Below, piece after piece: positions 26,300 to 29,222 of a stretch of DNA of 64,000 nt; position 1 is the first letter of the stretch, and every line of letters begins with the position of its first letter. Position numbers and translations under genes: made by a program. The DNA is taken from the NCBI GenBank assembly GCA_963674695.2, contig CAXXGI010000003.1, positions 608,001 to 672,000 on the forward strand, written 5' to 3'. Under the pieces are notes generated by a model. That model ran no database searches. It had not been told where the DNA came from and saw nothing but the letters and a program-made list of their open reading frames with translations. The stretch is from a bacterium (GTDB lineage: Bacteria > UBA10199 > 2-02-FULL-44-16 > JAAZCA01).

Positions 26300-26412
26300 G
26301 ATACCCCCCTTTGCCCTGGACATATCGGCTTCAAGGATACCCCGCAAGGGGAAAGCGAACGAAATAATCCTGGATGGTTGACGAATCCGTGGCGCTCCCC
26401 TATTTCACCCTC

Positions 26413-27186
26413 ATGCCAAAGACCGGAGCAAAGTTCGAGAAGCTGGTGGCAATCATGTCGCGTCTGCGCGCACCCGATGGCTGCCCGTGGGACCGGAAGC
26501 AGACCTATCGCGACATCGCGGCGCACACGCTCGAAGAGACGCATGAGGTGATGGAGGCGATCGATCGGGAGAACTTCACCGATCTCTGCGAGGAATGCGG
26601 CGACTTAGTCCTGCAGGTCATCTTCTATGCCCAGATGGCGCGAGAGGACGGACACTTCACGATCGACGACGTCATCGATGCGATCACGAAGAAACTCATC
26701 CATCGCCATCCGCACGTCTTCGGCGAATCGAAGGTCGCCGATTCGAACGAGGTGGAGGAGCGCTGGGAAGAACTGAAGATGGCCGAGGGAAAAAAGTCGG
26801 TCGTGGGCGGCGTGCCCAAGAACCTTCCCGCGCTGCTCAAGGCGTTTCGCCTGGGCGAGAAGACCTCGCGCGTCGGCTTCGACTGGGGCGATGCCGAGGG
26901 GATCCTGGCCAAGGTCGAGGAGGAGACGCGCGAGTTGCACGAGGCGAGCCAGTCCCAGGATCGCGAGGCGATCGATCACGAATACGGCGACCTGCTCTTC
27001 ACGCTCGCCAACCTCGGCCGATTTCTCGGCCTCGACCCCGAGGGCAGCCTGCGCCGCGCCACCGAACGCTTCAGCGCGCGATTTCAACACATGGAGCACC
27101 AGTGCGAAAGCGACAACAAGAAACTCCAAAAACTCACGCCGGAGGAATGGGATACGCTGTGGGAACAGGCAAAGAAACAGGTATGA
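26413..27186 (+). CDS. mazG: Nucleoside triphosphate pyrophosphohydrolase MazG
   Basis: LRAPDGCPWDRKQT, EETHE, EECGD, HRHPHVFG, VGFDW, EYGDLLF. Confidence 0.96.
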   Translation: MPKTGAKFEKLVAIMSRLRAPDGCPWDRKQTYRDIAAHTLEETHEVMEAIDRENFTDLCEECGDLVLQVIFYAQMAREDGHFTIDDVIDAITKKLIHRHPHVFGESKVADSNEVEERWEELKMAEGKKSVVGGVPKNLPALLKAFRLGEKTSRVGFDWGDAEGILAKVEEETRELHEASQSQDREAIDHEYGDLLFTLANLGRFLGLDPEGSLRRATERFSARFQHMEHQCESDNKKLQKLTPEEWDTLWEQAKKQV

Positions 27187-27266
27187 ATTATGAATCGACT
27201 GCTGCAATAGTCACAATATGATCGCACAGAAGAAATGAGTGGTTGCGATATCATCACACAATTGTC

Positions 27267-27318
27267 TTCCGATTTCTGATGATGATCTTGATCTTGATGT
27301 TGATTTCTGATTACCGGC
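27267..27318. repeat. Degenerate hexamer array directly after the left four-helix gene stop
   Basis: GATTTCTGATGATGATCTTGATCTTGATGTTGATTTCTGATT. Confidence 0.7.
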
Positions 27319-27651
27319 TCACCTGAGCCGGTAGAGCATCCGGCTGATTCGATCTGCCCTTTCCTTGTTCTCCATTTCACATCGTGCCGGAATCAAGGAG
27401 AATGCGGCGGCCAGATCGATGCAGGCCGACACCTCCGCGAGCGAAGCCCTGGAGATCTGAAAGAAGCGCTTTCGTTCCCCCTTGCCCATCCGAGCATTGC
27501 CCTCCGCCAAGTTGAGCACGACGGAAGCCATGGCCCTTCTGAGCTGATCGACCAGATAGCCGTACCCACGTGGCCATCCACCGGAGAGCCCCCCGAGCTC
27601 CTTCGCCAGAGTGATCGATTCCCGGTAACAGTCCAGTTTTTCATGTAGCAT
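27319..27651 (-). CDS. Four-helix-bundle protein (TIGR02436 / 23S rRNA IVP family), copy A
   Basis: HEKLDCY, LVDQLRRAMASVVLNLAEG, RKRFFQISRASLAEV; RBS CAGGGAGG. Confidence 0.92.
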   Translation of the reverse strand: MLHEKLDCYRESITLAKELGGLSGGWPRGYGYLVDQLRRAMASVVLNLAEGNARMGKGERKRFFQISRASLAEVSACIDLAAAFSLIPARCEMENKERADRISRMLYRLR

Positions 27652-27655
27652 TTGA

Positions 27656-27731
27656 GCCTCCCTGTGGTGGTTAATTTTTTTTGCCCCCCGACCGGGCGAG
27701 GGGCAAAAAAAATTAACCACCACAGGGAGGC
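27656..27731. repeat. Perfect inverted repeat, 32-bp arms and 12-nt spacer, between the divergent four-helix genes
   Basis: GCCTCCCTGTGGTGGTTAATTTTTTTTGCCCC / CCGACCGGGCGA / GGGGCAAAAAAAATTAACCACCACAGGGAGGC. Confidence 0.97.
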
Positions 27732-27734
27732 GTC

Positions 27735-28070
27735 ATGAATCATGAAAAACTGGACTGTTACCGGGAACTCATCATGGTCTCGAAGGAGCTCGGGGGGCTC
27801 ATGAAAGGATGGCCGAGAGGCTCTGGCTATCTGGTCGATCAGCTCAGAAGGGCCATATCGTCTGCTGTGCTCAACTTGGCGGAGGGCAACGGCAAGCGGG
27901 GGCAACCACGTGAACGAAAGCGCTTCTTTCAGATCTCGATGGGATCCATCGCGGAGGTGGCAGCGGGCCTGGATCTGGCCGCCGCATTCTCCTTGATTCC
28001 GGCACGAGTACAGGAGGAGAATAAGGCGATTCTGCGAGCAGCATACAACCGGATCAGGAGACTCTCCTGA
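27735..28070 (+). CDS. Four-helix-bundle protein (TIGR02436 / 23S rRNA IVP family), copy B
   Basis: HEKLDCY, LVDQLRRAISSAVLNLAEG, RKRFFQISMGSIAEV. Confidence 0.92.
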   Translation: MNHEKLDCYRELIMVSKELGGLMKGWPRGSGYLVDQLRRAISSAVLNLAEGNGKRGQPRERKRFFQISMGSIAEVAAGLDLAAAFSLIPARVQEENKAILRAAYNRIRRLS

Positions 28071-28140
28071 TCCGGCTCCGTTATCGATATCTCGAAGAAT
28101 CGGTTTCTCCCAATCGGTTCTCGGTTTTCCGTTTCGGTTT
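28071..28140. repeat. Degenerate ~6-mer array directly after the right four-helix gene stop
   Basis: TCCGGC TCCGTT ATCGAT ATCTCG ... ATCGGTTTCTCCCAATCGGTTCTCGGTTTTCCGTTTCGGTTT. Confidence 0.55.
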
Positions 28141-28222
28141 GAAATGTCAGGCGGGGTGATAACGGCACATTGTTGTTGTCAGATCCAATAGTGATCACTA
28201 CAATTCACTTCATTCACCACTT

Positions 28223-28549
28223 ATGACCTACAATCGTTGGACAACCGCCATCATGCTCAACGCCTTCGTCTTTCCCGGTGCCGGGCATTGGCTCATCGGT
28301 CGTCGCCTTTCCGGCGTGATCATCGGCGTGCTCGCCGTTATCTTTTTGATGACACCGCTAGCGGCCTACACGCGGACCACACTGCACCTCTTTTCACTCC
28401 TGAAGTACAAGGGCACCGGTCTTTCGATGATGGGCCAGGCGTGGACCATGAACCAAGACCTCATCCTCTGGTGCCTGGCCGGCCTCGTGATCACCTGGGG
28501 ATTTGGAATTCTGGATCTGGTGGTGAGGCGGCGACGCCGTGAACAGTGA
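28223..28549 (+). CDS. Small membrane protein of unknown function
   Basis: LNAFVFPGAGHWLIGR motif plus 2-3 hydrophobic segments. Confidence 0.7.
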   Translation: MTYNRWTTAIMLNAFVFPGAGHWLIGRRLSGVIIGVLAVIFLMTPLAAYTRTTLHLFSLLKYKGTGLSMMGQAWTMNQDLILWCLAGLVITWGFGILDLVVRRRRREQ

Positions 28550-28682: not shown

Positions 28683-29222
28683 ATGCTCAACTTACGTTCC
28701 AAAGTCGCGCGCGAACTCTTGAGTTTCTTCTTTCTCCACGAGGAGGAGGGATACTATGTCAATGAACTCGCGCGCCGTCTCAAACTCGACAAACGCAACA
28801 TGGCCAAGAAGCTCGCCGAGTTCGAAGCGGATGGGCTCTTTCAGTCCACCCTGTCCGGACATCAGAAGTACTATTCGCTGAACCGCTCCTTCCCCCTCTA
28901 TCAGGAATACCGTCAGTTCGTCCTCAAGACAGCCGGTCTGGAGGCACAGCTTCGCGAGGCACTTCGAGAGATCCCAGGCATCTCGCACGCCTACCTGTAT
29001 GGTTCCTACGCCTCAAACCGCATGGACGCATCGAGTGACATCGACCTCATCATCATCGGCGACCACAAGGTCATCGAAGTTCAGCAGGCCATAGCCGCAT
29101 TGCAGAAGAAGCTCGATCGCGAGATCAACCTGGTCAACCTGAGCGAAGACGAGTTCCGTGCGAAGGCCGACGATCCCTTCCTCGTCGACATCATGAAGAA
29201 CGATCGACTGCAGCTCATATGA
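28683..29222 (+). CDS. wHTH-fused minimal nucleotidyltransferase (MNT antitoxin-like)
   Basis: YYVNELARRL wHTH; AYLYGSYA...SSDIDLIIIG; REIN. Confidence 0.88.
   Translation: MLNLRSKVARELLSFFFLHEEEGYYVNELARRLKLDKRNMAKKLAEFEADGLFQSTLSGHQKYYSLNRSFPLYQEYRQFVLKTAGLEAQLREALREIPGISHAYLYGSYASNRMDASSDIDLIIIGDHKVIEVQQAIAALQKKLDREINLVNLSEDEFRAKADDPFLVDIMKNDRLQLI

What the first reader, a model, noticed from the sequence alone, without database searches (positions are those of the whole stretch)
27187..28220. Fold-back cassette: head-to-head four-helix-bundle genes around a perfect palindrome
Seen: two divergent TIGR02436-type genes (27651-27319 and 27735-28070) are separated by a perfect 32-bp inverted repeat. 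It contains both RBSs (CAGGGAGG) and has a T8-GC hairpin-A8 core, the opposite polarity to a terminator. The whole ~750 bp could fold back as one hairpin. The cassette starts right after the mazG stop and carries no transposase, recombinase or RT. Established: this family occurs in 23S rRNA intervening sequences and is structurally related to the DGR accessory protein Avd; its function is unknown. Inference: a self-contained element with a hairpin/cruciform or ssDNA intermediate, or an invertible two-allele switch. This is the best candidate for an undescribed system here.
Basis: partly seen in the sequence, partly recalled or inferred. Interest (0 to 1): 0.88.

Follow-up and report, generated by a model that had tools for sequence, protein, structure and literature searches.

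The report
Mobile head-to-head four-helix-bundle gene cassette
This is one copy of a 1-kb jumping DNA element, repeated through this genome and its relatives, that carries two old sister genes of the unexplained "23S rRNA intervening-sequence protein" family back to back around a hairpin, and I found no description of this layout.

Summary
Genes 27651-27319 and 27735-28070 are both PF05635/TIGR02436. They flank a palindrome with perfect 32-nt arms and a 12-nt loop.

It is not a one-off or an assembly artefact. It is one of 7 such pairs, plus fragments, in this 3.03-Mb genome. After removing duplicates I collected 52 such cassettes, all from one small phylum.

The local family has 25-nt terminal inverted repeats. 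It has exact 7-bp target duplications in 2 copies and a 6/7 match in a third. It sits inside tight operons (mazG and its neighbour here; fliQ-fliR elsewhere).

Both genes are old paralogues (A and B) under strong purifying selection (dN/dS 0.02-0.13).

The spacer is 80-91 nt in 50 of 52 cassettes. Its stem is sharply 23 bp (94.6% Watson-Crick over positions 1-22, against 43% for shuffled partners), although its sequence differs between lineages. Its loop reads TCR...G on one strand in 50 of 52, and it faces gene A in 30 and gene B in 20.

My best reading is a non-autonomous mobile two-gene version of the IVS-type cassette, with the hairpin acting on RNA. The mobility and anatomy are shown; the mechanism is inferred. 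No transposase, RT or recombinase partner was found.

This scan had already noted single-gene cassettes of this family on other DNA. The head-to-head form is new.

The parts
27203..28202 (.). Whole mobile element (copy P1), from terminal repeat to terminal repeat, 1000 bp
   Evidence: The ends were set by aligning 6-8 copies. Relatives have mazG and the next gene adjacent.
27203..27227 (+). Left terminal inverted repeat, TGCAATAGTCACAATATGATCGCAC
   Evidence: It differs at 2 positions from the family consensus. The left and right consensus sequences agree at 19 of 25 positions.
28178..28202 (-). Right terminal inverted repeat
   Evidence: It differs at 3 positions from the right-end consensus.
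27271..27313 (.). Subterminal array of 6-7-nt repeats (ATCANN(N) in gene A's sense)
   Evidence: Read directly from the sequence. It is conserved in the other copies.
27312..27333 (-). 10-bp hairpin holding gene A's stop codon
   Evidence: repeat I15. Hairpins of different sequence sit at the stop codon in relatives of the same subfamily.
27319..27651 (-). Gene A, a PF05635 four-helix-bundle protein, 110 aa, pI 9.6
   Evidence: dN/dS between copies is 0.05-0.13.
27656..27731 (.). Central palindrome: arms 27656-27687 and 27700-27731, loop 27688-27699. Both Shine-Dalgarno sequences lie in the arms
   Evidence: Covariation across 50 cassettes.
27735..28070 (+). Gene B, the paralogous PF05635 protein, 111 aa, pI 10.3
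   Evidence: dN/dS between copies is 0.02-0.09.
28049..28075 (+). 13-bp hairpin holding gene B's stop codon
   Evidence: repeat I7.
28076..28142 (.). Subterminal array of CGGTT/CCGTT-type short repeats
   Evidence: The same repeat type forms the arms of the long central palindrome in copy P5.
28176..28204 (+). Outward-facing promoter-like site, TTGTCA-17-TACAAT (10 of 12), spanning the element's end and pointing at the host gene at 28223
   Evidence: This is a consensus match only.
27187..27216 (-). Outward-facing promoter-like site at the left end, TTGTGA-18-CATAAT (9 of 12)
   Evidence: This is a consensus match only.
26374..27186 (+). Host mazG (upstream flank)
   Evidence: NF007113 at 321 bits.
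28223..28549 (+). Host 108-aa membrane-protein gene (downstream flank). In relatives it lies directly after mazG

Best explanation
SHOWN. Window 27203-28202 is one copy of a roughly 1-kb non-autonomous mobile element that has spread through this genome. It has terminal inverted repeats and 7-bp target duplications. Here it has landed in the short spacer of a mazG operon.

Its conserved core is a two-gene cassette found in four families of one small phylum. Two anciently diverged paralogues (A and B) of the PF05635 / S23p / Avd-like four-helix-bundle protein sit head to head. They are 80-91 nt apart, around a stem of at least 23 bp with a loop of about 12 nt. The stem keeps pairing while its sequence changes. 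The loop keeps the motif TCR...G and can face either gene. Both proteins are basic, have strong Shine-Dalgarno sites and are under purifying selection.

INFERRED. The cassette is the two-gene form of the 'IVS-type' cassette. In that form a single PF05635 gene is enclosed by inverted arms, as in 23S rRNA intervening sequences. In the single form the purine-rich leader pairs with a downstream arm. Here each gene's leader pairs with the complement of its partner's leader.

I read the hairpin as acting in RNA that crosses the centre, for example read-through from the host operon. The element has no terminator in either direction. In such RNA the hairpin buries the downstream gene's Shine-Dalgarno site and offers a two-turn double-stranded RNA of the kind RNase III cuts in rRNA IVSs. 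Cutting or melting it would free an A-rich, U-poor leader for translation.

Having one gene in each direction would make expression independent of insertion orientation. The outward promoter-like ends would limit polar damage to host genes.

The basic A and B proteins, whose solved relative is a ring, probably bind the element's own nucleic acid (the loop and/or the short-repeat arrays). What they do for the element or the host is not known.
For: Copies and mobility
- 19 PF05635 matches in the genome, 14 of them in 7 divergent pairs. Copies are 84-91% identical over about 0.9-1.07 kb, and fragments also exist.
- It is the most numerous dispersed repeat of 400 bp or more in the genome.
- The terminal repeats agree at 19 of 25 positions.
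- Target duplications at the predicted ends, with no shifting: copy P5 7/7, P6 7/7, P7 6/7. In the null test, which allowed 49 shift combinations, 7/7 arose in 0.5% of trials.
- A variant with both genes truncated sits at two loci that have different flanks and their own duplications. This shows mobilisation in trans.

Insertion
- In 9 of the 11 relatives with a mazG match, the homologue of the 28223 gene lies within about -18 to +17 nt of mazG. Here the gap is 1036 nt.
- Copy P5 lies between fliQ (PF01313) and fliR (PF01311).

Conserved core
- 52 unique cassettes. The spacer is 80-91 nt in 50 of 52, and the loop is 10-14 nt in 51 of 52.
- Stem positions 1-22 are 94.6% Watson-Crick, against a mean of 43.1% (maximum 48.7%) over 200 partner shuffles. 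There are 3-4 pair types at most stem positions. Pairing is 41 of 50 at position 23 and 23 of 50 at position 24.
- The loop reads T1 C2 R3 ... G12 in 50 of 52. It is in gene A's sense in 30 and gene B's sense in 20, with flips inside single genomes.
- The 5' arm is 45% T and 10% A, mirrored in the 3' arm. A Shine-Dalgarno-like site follows the stem in 47 of 50.

Genes
- dN/dS is 0.02-0.13 at dS 0.12-0.48.
- The A/B labels need only 2 changes on the tree, against a shuffled mean of about 33.
- The profile matches the solved XCC0516 structure, 2GSC, at E 5e-18; the entry holds five chains. PMC4990558 describes that protein as a homopentamer (passages read).
- pI is 9.6 and 10.3.

Link to the IVS type
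- The three single PF05635 genes of this genome are each enclosed by inverted arms of 31-44 nt, 74-89% complementary.
- rRNA IVSs are stems cut by RNase III (PMC4990558, passages).
- The genome has an RNase III gene.
- No terminator-like site lies in the element, and the termini carry outward promoter-like sites (5 promoter-like sites found against 0.8 expected).

Range
- A strict head-to-head pattern hits 13 of 93 genomes of the phylum, with control hits in 0 of 93.
- A relaxed pattern hits only at control level in 401 + 401 genomes of two other phyla.
Against: - No transcript data exist, so RNA-level action, the start sites and RNase III cutting are all untested.
- Mismatches in the stem give no strand-specific G.U signal: GT+TG 15, AC+CA 15, TC 15, GA 15, of 68 in total. 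This is equally compatible with pairing in DNA.
- An outer stem closing the whole two-gene cassette is not general. For 120-nt flanks the inverted alignment score averages 17.5, against 15.0 shuffled and 20.5 direct; inverted beats direct in 29 of 49 (Wilcoxon p = 0.14). Excision of the whole element as in an rRNA IVS is therefore not supported.
- At least one cassette (L023, pair 2) lies between genes that both read away from it. Read-through cannot feed that one, so internal promoters must exist there. I could find no sigma-70-like promoter in the palindrome (and reading).
- The terminal-repeat motif of this genome's family is absent from the cassettes of relatives. The transposon shell is therefore lineage-specific, and how the core cassette moves elsewhere is unknown.
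- No transposase with matching ends is present.
- The conserved loop motif is not explained by an RNase III model.
Confidence: 0.5

Rival explanations
1. DNA-level hairpin. The palindrome extrudes as a cruciform, or folds in single-stranded DNA, and serves replication or transposition of the element (a fold-back or flip-flop intermediate).
For: - The arms are near-perfect, and stem mismatches show no G.U excess on either strand.
- The loop is found in both orientations.
- Symmetric deletions centred on the palindrome recur: M1, L058, L092, L108, and a contig joint 27385->27981 in 3 runs. This shows the inverted repeat is active at the DNA level.
Against: - The mobile family here has ordinary terminal inverted repeats and 7-bp duplications, which do not need a central hairpin.
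- Derivatives that lack the palindrome were still copied (P6, P7).
- The centre of the stem is GC-rich. From recall, this disfavours cruciform extrusion.
- The conserved T-rich 5' / A-rich 3' polarity and the Shine-Dalgarno placement are transcript-oriented features.
- Loop flips and arm homogenisation are expected by-products of template switching at any hairpin-forming repeat (recalled: quasipalindrome correction in E. coli; loop inversions in chloroplast hairpins).
Confidence: 0.15
2. Shared operator or bidirectional control region. The palindrome is double-stranded DNA bound by the A/B proteins or a host factor, and it sets transcription of both genes from internal promoters.
For: - The genes diverge at a fixed 80-91-nt spacing.
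- The loop motif is conserved and works in either orientation, as a duplex site would.
- One cassette sits between outward-reading host genes and so needs its own promoters.
- The proteins are basic.
Against: - A stem of at least 23 bp whose sequence is free to change, provided the two arms stay complementary, is far longer and more variable than a protein operator. It would require co-evolving specificity in every lineage.
- No sigma-70-like hexamer pair lies in the palindrome.
- Single-gene cassettes of the family pair an upstream arm with a downstream arm about 400 nt away, which an operator model does not explain.
Confidence: 0.15
3. Minimal invertible switch. The orientation of the 12-nt loop decides whether A or B is made, and the loop flips often within a population.
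For: - The loop is asymmetric and conserved, and it faces gene A in 30 cassettes and gene B in 20, with flips between sister copies in one genome.
- In one subfamily the TCR strand gives a TTGTCA-16-CATAAA promoter-like match toward one gene only (my reading).
Against: - That promoter-like match is absent from most loops, for example TCACCCGGGCGG.
- No recombinase lies nearby.
- A and B are co-conserved paralogues rather than alternative alleles.
- Flips are seen only between copies about 7-10% diverged, so they need not be fast.
- The loop strand shows no consistent link to the replication strand (3 lagging, 2 leading).
- The loop strand shows no consistent link to host transcription either: 4 antisense and 2 sense among the 6 cassettes with both flanks known.
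Confidence: 0.08
4. Neutral by-product. An old inverted duplication has arms kept alike by gene conversion or template switching, and the hairpin has no function.
For: A versus B within one element has dS of only 0.56-0.83, and stretches reach 87-91% nucleotide identity. Conversion between the arms therefore does occur.
Against: - Pairing stops sharply at position 23-24 in lineages whose stems differ in sequence, and is near random at positions 24-27.
- The spacer length and the loop motif are conserved in 50 of 52 cassettes.
- Conversion tracts would not end at one position everywhere.
Confidence: 0.07
5. The fold-back is an assembly artefact.
For: Short-read contigs of three runs break inside the element.
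Against: - The same layout, with different sequences, occurs at 7 loci here and in assemblies of at least 15 other genomes.
- The two arms differ at 17% of positions and encode distinct, conserved paralogues.
Confidence: 0.01

Closest known systems
ORF-carrying intervening sequences (IVS) of 23S rRNA (Leptospira, Coxiella burnetii; S23p ORF)
   Same: It has the same protein family (PF05635). The gene sits beside inverted repeats that form a stem. It has long been suspected to be a selfish or mobile element whose ORF might serve mobility (PMC4990558, passages). The single-gene cassettes of this genome have the same build.
   Different: It is not in rRNA; it lies between protein-coding genes. 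It carries two paralogous genes head to head, and the stem joins the two leaders instead of enclosing one gene. It is multicopy, with terminal inverted repeats and 7-bp target duplications. RNase III processing is not shown here.
Avd, accessory protein of diversity-generating retroelements
   Same: PF05635 is reported to resemble Avd, with a related four-helix-bundle fold (PMC10053308, passage). The pentameric, basic, nucleic-acid-binding character of Avd is from recall.
   Different: No reverse transcriptase or template/variable repeat lies nearby. The only RVT_1 match in the genome is at C2:707298-707929.
MITEs and other non-autonomous terminal-repeat transposons (and eukaryotic Foldback elements)
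   Same: It has terminal inverted repeats, fixed-length target duplications and many copies with internal-deletion derivatives. It encodes no transposase.
   Different: It carries two conserved, translated genes under purifying selection. Its core cassette is conserved across families that lack these particular terminal repeats. No matching autonomous partner was found.
XCC0516 of Xanthomonas campestris (PDB 2GSC)
   Same: It is the only solved structure matched by the A/B profile (E 5e-18 over residues 3-109). The entry holds 5 chains, and the protein is described as a toroidal homopentamer in PMC4990558 (passage).
   Different: XCC0516 is a single gene. Here two paralogues are always paired, and their stoichiometry is unknown.
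Paired heptanucleotide-repeat sites of Geobacter metallireducens ('global regulator binding sites')
   Same: These are pairs of inverted arrays of about five 7-nt repeats (consensus MTYCTGA), scattered between genes (PMC2700814, passages). The subterminal arrays here are similar short repeats.
   Different: That paper does not link them to PF05635 genes, and I did not test the link. Its supplementary alignments were not read.

Membership tests
PF05635 / TIGR02436 (23S rRNA intervening-sequence protein, four-helix-bundle protein) | Profile score over the curated cut-off | tested here: met
   Gene A scores 71.8 bits (cut-off 33.8) and 61.9 bits (cut-off 24). Gene B scores 50.4 and 47.5 bits.
PF05635 / TIGR02436 | Conserved GxxRxxxSxxxNxxE motif (as given in PMC3936711, passage) | tested here: met
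   R39, S43, N47 and E50 are invariant or nearly so across the 34 A/B proteins.
23S rRNA intervening sequence (IVS) | Lies inside a 23S rRNA helix | tested here: not met
   It lies between mazG and a membrane-protein gene. The other copies lie between protein genes or downstream of 5S rRNA.
23S rRNA intervening sequence (IVS) | Terminal complementary sequences form a stem that encloses the ORF | tested here: inconclusive
   The terminal repeats agree at 19 of 25 positions here, but outer complementarity is not general across the cassettes. The strong stem is central and joins the two leaders.
23S rRNA intervening sequence (IVS) | Excised from the transcript by RNase III | not testable with these tools
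   No RNA data. An RNase III gene is present.
Diversity-generating retroelement | Adjacent reverse transcriptase and template/variable repeat pair | tested here: not met
   No such ORF lies in 27187-28222. The only RVT_1 match is on another contig.
Terminal-inverted-repeat transposon / MITE | Terminal inverted repeats | tested here: met
   25-nt ends agreeing at 19 of 25 positions between the consensus sequences, present on 5-6 copies.
Terminal-inverted-repeat transposon / MITE | Target-site duplication of fixed length | tested here: met
   P5 7/7, P6 7/7 and P7 6/7 with no shifting. P1 (5/7) and M1 (6/7) match only after shifting and are not significant.
Terminal-inverted-repeat transposon / MITE | A transposase, in cis or in trans, with matching ends | tested here: not met
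   No further terminal-repeat copies lie next to a transposase. There is one partial rve match and one DDE_Tnp_1 match, neither with these ends. An IS110-like and three Y1/RAYT-like genes were read by eye only.
Site-specific invertible switch (fim/hin type) | A recombinase gene nearby, and both orientations present in one population | tested here: inconclusive
   No recombinase lies in the element. Orientation within a population could not be read, because only contigs were available.

The most novel reading that the evidence does not exclude
PF05635 cassettes would be a class of mobile element in their own right, with the four-helix-bundle proteins as the element's own machinery. In this reading an A/B ring recognises the conserved TCR...G hairpin loop and the 7-nt repeat arrays. 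It then recruits host enzymes, such as RNase III or a polymerase, to process, copy or insert the cassette. That would explain why this gene family turns up inside rRNA genes, operons, CRISPR loci and DGRs without any canonical transposase. The head-to-head form would be its orientation-proof version.
Probability: 0.15. Interest if true: 0.95.

Novelty: new variant of a known kind. Interest (0 to 1): 0.8.

Why it matters
The proteins encoded in 23S rRNA intervening sequences have been known since the early 1990s. Their function is unknown, and the proposal that they belong to a mobile element has not been settled (PMC4990558).

This is a form of the same gene family that shows direct marks of transposition. 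It has defined ends, 7-bp target duplications, filled versus empty operon junctions, and derivatives copied in trans.

It also carries an unusually clear comparative signal: a 23-bp stem that covaries across 50 cassettes, and a conserved loop that flips. Together these give concrete RNA or DNA targets to test against the proteins.

The element inserts into tight operons (mazG, fliQ-fliR). That bears on how bacteria tolerate such inserts and on how intergenic repeat families are annotated.

My full-text searches found no description of head-to-head PF05635 pairs.

Tried and rejected
- Sequencing runs. No RNA holder was listed. The three holding runs are contigs that break at about 27327 and 28046, so they say nothing on expression or on loop orientation within a population.
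- Metagenome pattern scans. One used the palindrome arms with a free 12-nt loop; the other used the conserved 27-nt N-terminal coding word. Both returned 0 matches.
- Complex prediction, A against B with alignments. No verdict (score 0.00).
- Rfam. Only sub-threshold chance hits.
- Internal promoters. The scan found no sigma-70 hexamer pair in the palindrome. A sigma-54-like spacing fits one subfamily only (my reading).
- Strand-specific G.U test. The result is symmetric.
- Outer closing stem. It is not general.
- Loop strand against replication strand. 3 lagging and 2 leading in this genome.
- Loop strand against host transcription.
  - Picking the longest ORF was unreliable; it mis-called copy P5.
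  - I then sent 84 of 155 candidate flank ORFs to Pfam. The remaining 71 were not sent.
  - Together with copies P1, P4 and P5, only 6 cassettes had both flanks resolved: 4 antisense and 2 sense. P4's flanks were read by eye.
- Search for an autonomous partner. No extra terminal-repeat copies exist, and the rve and DDE_Tnp_1 matches have unrelated ends.
- The terminal-repeat motif was not found in relatives' cassettes.
- Target duplications could not be judged in other genomes, because the short-repeat arrays at the ends vary between sister copies.
- Careful tree. It did not finish in 300 s, so the quick IQ-TREE result is reported.
- One search was an over-long search term, corrected. One search gave a wrong handle type, corrected through.
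Full report
WHAT IS THERE

Gene A (27319-27651, minus strand, 110 aa) and gene B (27735-28070, plus strand, 111 aa) both pass the curated cut-offs of PF05635 and TIGR02436. Between them lies a palindrome with perfect 32-nt arms (27656-27687 and 27700-27731) and the 12-nt loop CCGACCGGGCGA. Each arm ends in the Shine-Dalgarno sequence of one gene. The core reads T8-GCCCC, loop, GGGGC-A8, so on either strand the GC clamp is followed by A's rather than U's. The terminator scan finds nothing inside the element. As RNA the hairpin folds at -66.7 and -69.5 kcal/mol, z about -12. The coding arms are themselves 83% complementary inverted repeats. No Rfam family matches.

IT IS A REPEATED, TRANSPOSED ELEMENT

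The window is G000:C3:608001-672000 in a 3.03-Mb genome of 3 contigs. That genome has 19 PF05635 matches, and 14 of them form 7 divergent pairs.
- Four further copies (P3, P4, P5, and P6/P7 in part) are 84-91% identical to this one over about 0.9-1.07 kb. P2 is a distant relative with the same layout. There are also fragments and a deletion derivative, M1.
- It is the most numerous dispersed repeat of 400 bp or more in the genome.

Aligning the copies fixes the ends.
- The left end is TGCAGTAGTCACGATATGATCGCAC, and the right end (reverse complement) is TGCAGTGCTCACTATTTGATCTGAC. They agree at 19 of 25 positions.
- At these ends, with no shifting allowed, the 7 nt outside match 7/7 in P5 (TATAAAG) and 7/7 in P6 (CATCACA), and 6/7 in P7.
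- The null test allowed 49 shift combinations and still gave 7/7 in only 0.5% of trials.
- P1 (5/7) and M1 (6/7) match only after shifting and are not significant.

P6 and P7 share a variant in which the palindrome and the first ~30 codons of both genes are replaced. They nevertheless sit at different loci, each with its own duplication. The element can therefore be moved in trans.

In this window the element spans 27203-28202.

EMPTY SITES

In 9 of the 11 relatives with a mazG match, the homologue of the gene at 28223 follows mazG within about -18 to +17 nt. In the other 2 no homologue was found in the fetched locus. Here the gap is 1036 nt. Copy P5 lies between fliQ (PF01313) and fliR (PF01311). 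The element therefore lands inside tight operons, in either orientation relative to host transcription.

THE CORE CASSETTE IS OLD AND CONSERVED

- In a sample of 41 genomes of the same class, 28 have PF05635, and I recognised divergent pairs in 12 of them.
- I fetched 29 regions and found 32 pairs.
- A scan of 185,579 species genomes gave 395 relatives. Of the 79 loci kept:
  - 34 held 35 real pairs, all from MAGs labelled Deltaproteobacteria, Myxococcales, Oligoflexia, Bdellovibrio, Pseudomonadota or simply 'bacterium';
  - 20 were cut by a contig end;
  - 3 were centre-deleted;
  - 21 had no partner, 16 of them from other phyla;
  - 1 showed only a spurious pair call.
- After removing duplicates there are 52 unique cassettes.
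- A strict head-to-head DNA pattern hits 13 of the 93 genomes held for this phylum (4 of 24 families), and the backward control hits 0 of 93.
- A relaxed pattern hits 3 of 401 and 3 of 401 genomes in two other phyla. The control rate there is the same (3 and 2 genomes), and the hits do not look like the family.

Every cassette has one A-type and one B-type gene. On a quick maximum-likelihood tree the A/B labels need only 2 changes, against about 33 when shuffled. The A and B subtrees largely mirror each other. Between copies in this genome dN/dS is 0.02-0.13 at dS 0.12-0.48. A versus B inside one element has dS of only 0.56-0.83, so some conversion between the arms occurs. The A/B profile matches one solved structure, XCC0516 (2GSC, five chains), at E 5e-18. 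Both proteins are basic.

THE SPACER

- Its length is 80-91 nt in 50 of 52 cassettes, and the loop is 10-14 nt in 51 of 52.
- Counting out from the loop in 50 cassettes, positions 1-22 are 94.6% Watson-Crick. Arms paired with another cassette's arm give 43.1% (maximum 48.7% in 200 shuffles). Most positions show 3-4 different pair types.
- Pairing is 41 of 50 at position 23 and falls to 23 of 50 at position 24. In this genome the stem is longer (31-35 bp).
- The 5' arm is 45% T and 10% A, and the 3' arm mirrors it. A Shine-Dalgarno-like site follows the stem in 47 of 50.
- The loop is asymmetric and conserved. On exactly one strand it reads T1 C2 R3 ... G12 in 50 of 52; among the 34 twelve-nt loops, T1, C2, R3 and G12 are present in 34 of 34.
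- The first and last loop bases are therefore always a T.G (or C.A) transition mismatch.
- The TCR strand is gene A's sense strand in 30 cassettes and gene B's in 20. True flips occur between sister copies in one genome (L027 against L038; L070 against L087).

RESULTS THAT LIMIT THE READING

- Stem mismatches are symmetric (GT+TG 15, AC+CA 15, TC 15, GA 15, of 68), so there is no strand-specific G.U signature.
- The outer flanks do not generally pair.
- The terminal-repeat motif of this genome is absent from relatives' cassettes.
- No matching transposase was found. The only reverse transcriptase match is elsewhere.
- The loop strand does not follow the replication strand. It also does not clearly follow host transcription: 4 antisense and 2 sense in 6 resolved cases, with only 84 of 155 candidate flank ORFs sent to Pfam.
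- One cassette lies between genes that both read away from it.

HOW IT MOST LIKELY WORKS

The three single PF05635 genes of this genome are each enclosed by inverted arms of 31-44 nt. Earlier notes of this scan reported that layout on other DNA, and it is the build of the ORF-carrying 23S rRNA intervening sequences, whose stem RNase III cuts (PMC4990558, passages).

The family-wide constant is that the purine-rich leader of the gene is paired with a complement. In the two-gene form the complement is supplied by the partner's leader.

I therefore read the central hairpin as an RNA element of transcripts that cross the centre. It hides the downstream Shine-Dalgarno site. At 23 bp or more it has the length of an RNase III substrate (that length requirement is from recall). 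An RNase III gene is present.

The absence of terminators in both directions, the gene in each direction, and the outward promoter-like ends fit an element built to sit in operons in either orientation.

All of this is inference. The loop motif is unexplained, and DNA-level or operator roles are not excluded. I put about 0.9 on the descriptive claims (mobile, multicopy, conserved two-paralogue cassette with a selected hairpin) and about 0.35-0.4 on the RNA mechanism.

LITERATURE

Full-text searches were run for PF05635, TIGR02436, 23S_rRNA_IVP, 'rRNA-intervening sequence protein', S23p, Xcc0516, Avd-like, HEPN with IVS, Leptospira IVS, and heptanucleotide repeats. I read passages of PMC10053308, PMC3936711, PMC10910872, PMC11637426, PMC4990558 and PMC2700814. 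None describes head-to-head pairs. Subscription-only papers, such as Ralph and McClelland 1993 and Lin et al. 2006, were not seen; they are cited only through PMC4990558. Supplements were not read.

Noticed in passing
G000 C1:749672-750421, C3:279280-280122, C3:473817-474515: Three genes about 84% alike that look like REP-associated Y1/HUH transposases (motifs read by eye, no family scan). One lies next to the single PF05635 cassette at C1:748913-749227.
   Followed up: partly
G000 C3:56665-56945, C3:796694-796980, C3:245797-245982: In three copies the palindrome and the N-terminal parts of both genes are replaced by about 260 bp. That segment contains a ~70-nt repeat found at 10 or more other places in the genome (C1:429k, C1:519-521k, C3:157-158k, C3:717k).
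   Followed up: partly
G000 C1:1028100-1028508; loci L058, L092, L108; window joint 27385->27981: Symmetric deletions centred on the palindrome recur in several genomes. One such joined form is present in contigs of three runs.
   Followed up: partly
G000 C3:919020-919990: The distant copy P2 lies just downstream of a sequence I read by eye as a 5S rRNA gene with a terminator-like hairpin. This is of interest given the family's link to rRNA operons.
   Followed up: no
G000 C3, about 590-620 kb (start of this window): The GC skew changes sign here, as at a replication terminus.
   Followed up: no
window 28683-29222: An ORF with an HTH domain plus an MntA-like nucleotidyltransferase domain, the antitoxin type of type VII toxin-antitoxin systems. 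Its score is below NCBIfam's cut-off, but the Pfam NTP_transf_2 and Polbeta matches pass theirs.
   Followed up: no
loci L023, L028, L031, L021: Two head-to-head cassettes of different subfamilies can lie within 0.4-2.7 kb of each other in one locus. In L021 the flanks repeat directly.
   Followed up: no
window 27312-27333 and 28049-28075; relatives: In the HEKL subfamily both stop codons sit in short perfect hairpins whose sequences differ between lineages. The HQKL subfamily lacks them and goes straight into 7-nt repeat arrays.
   Followed up: partly
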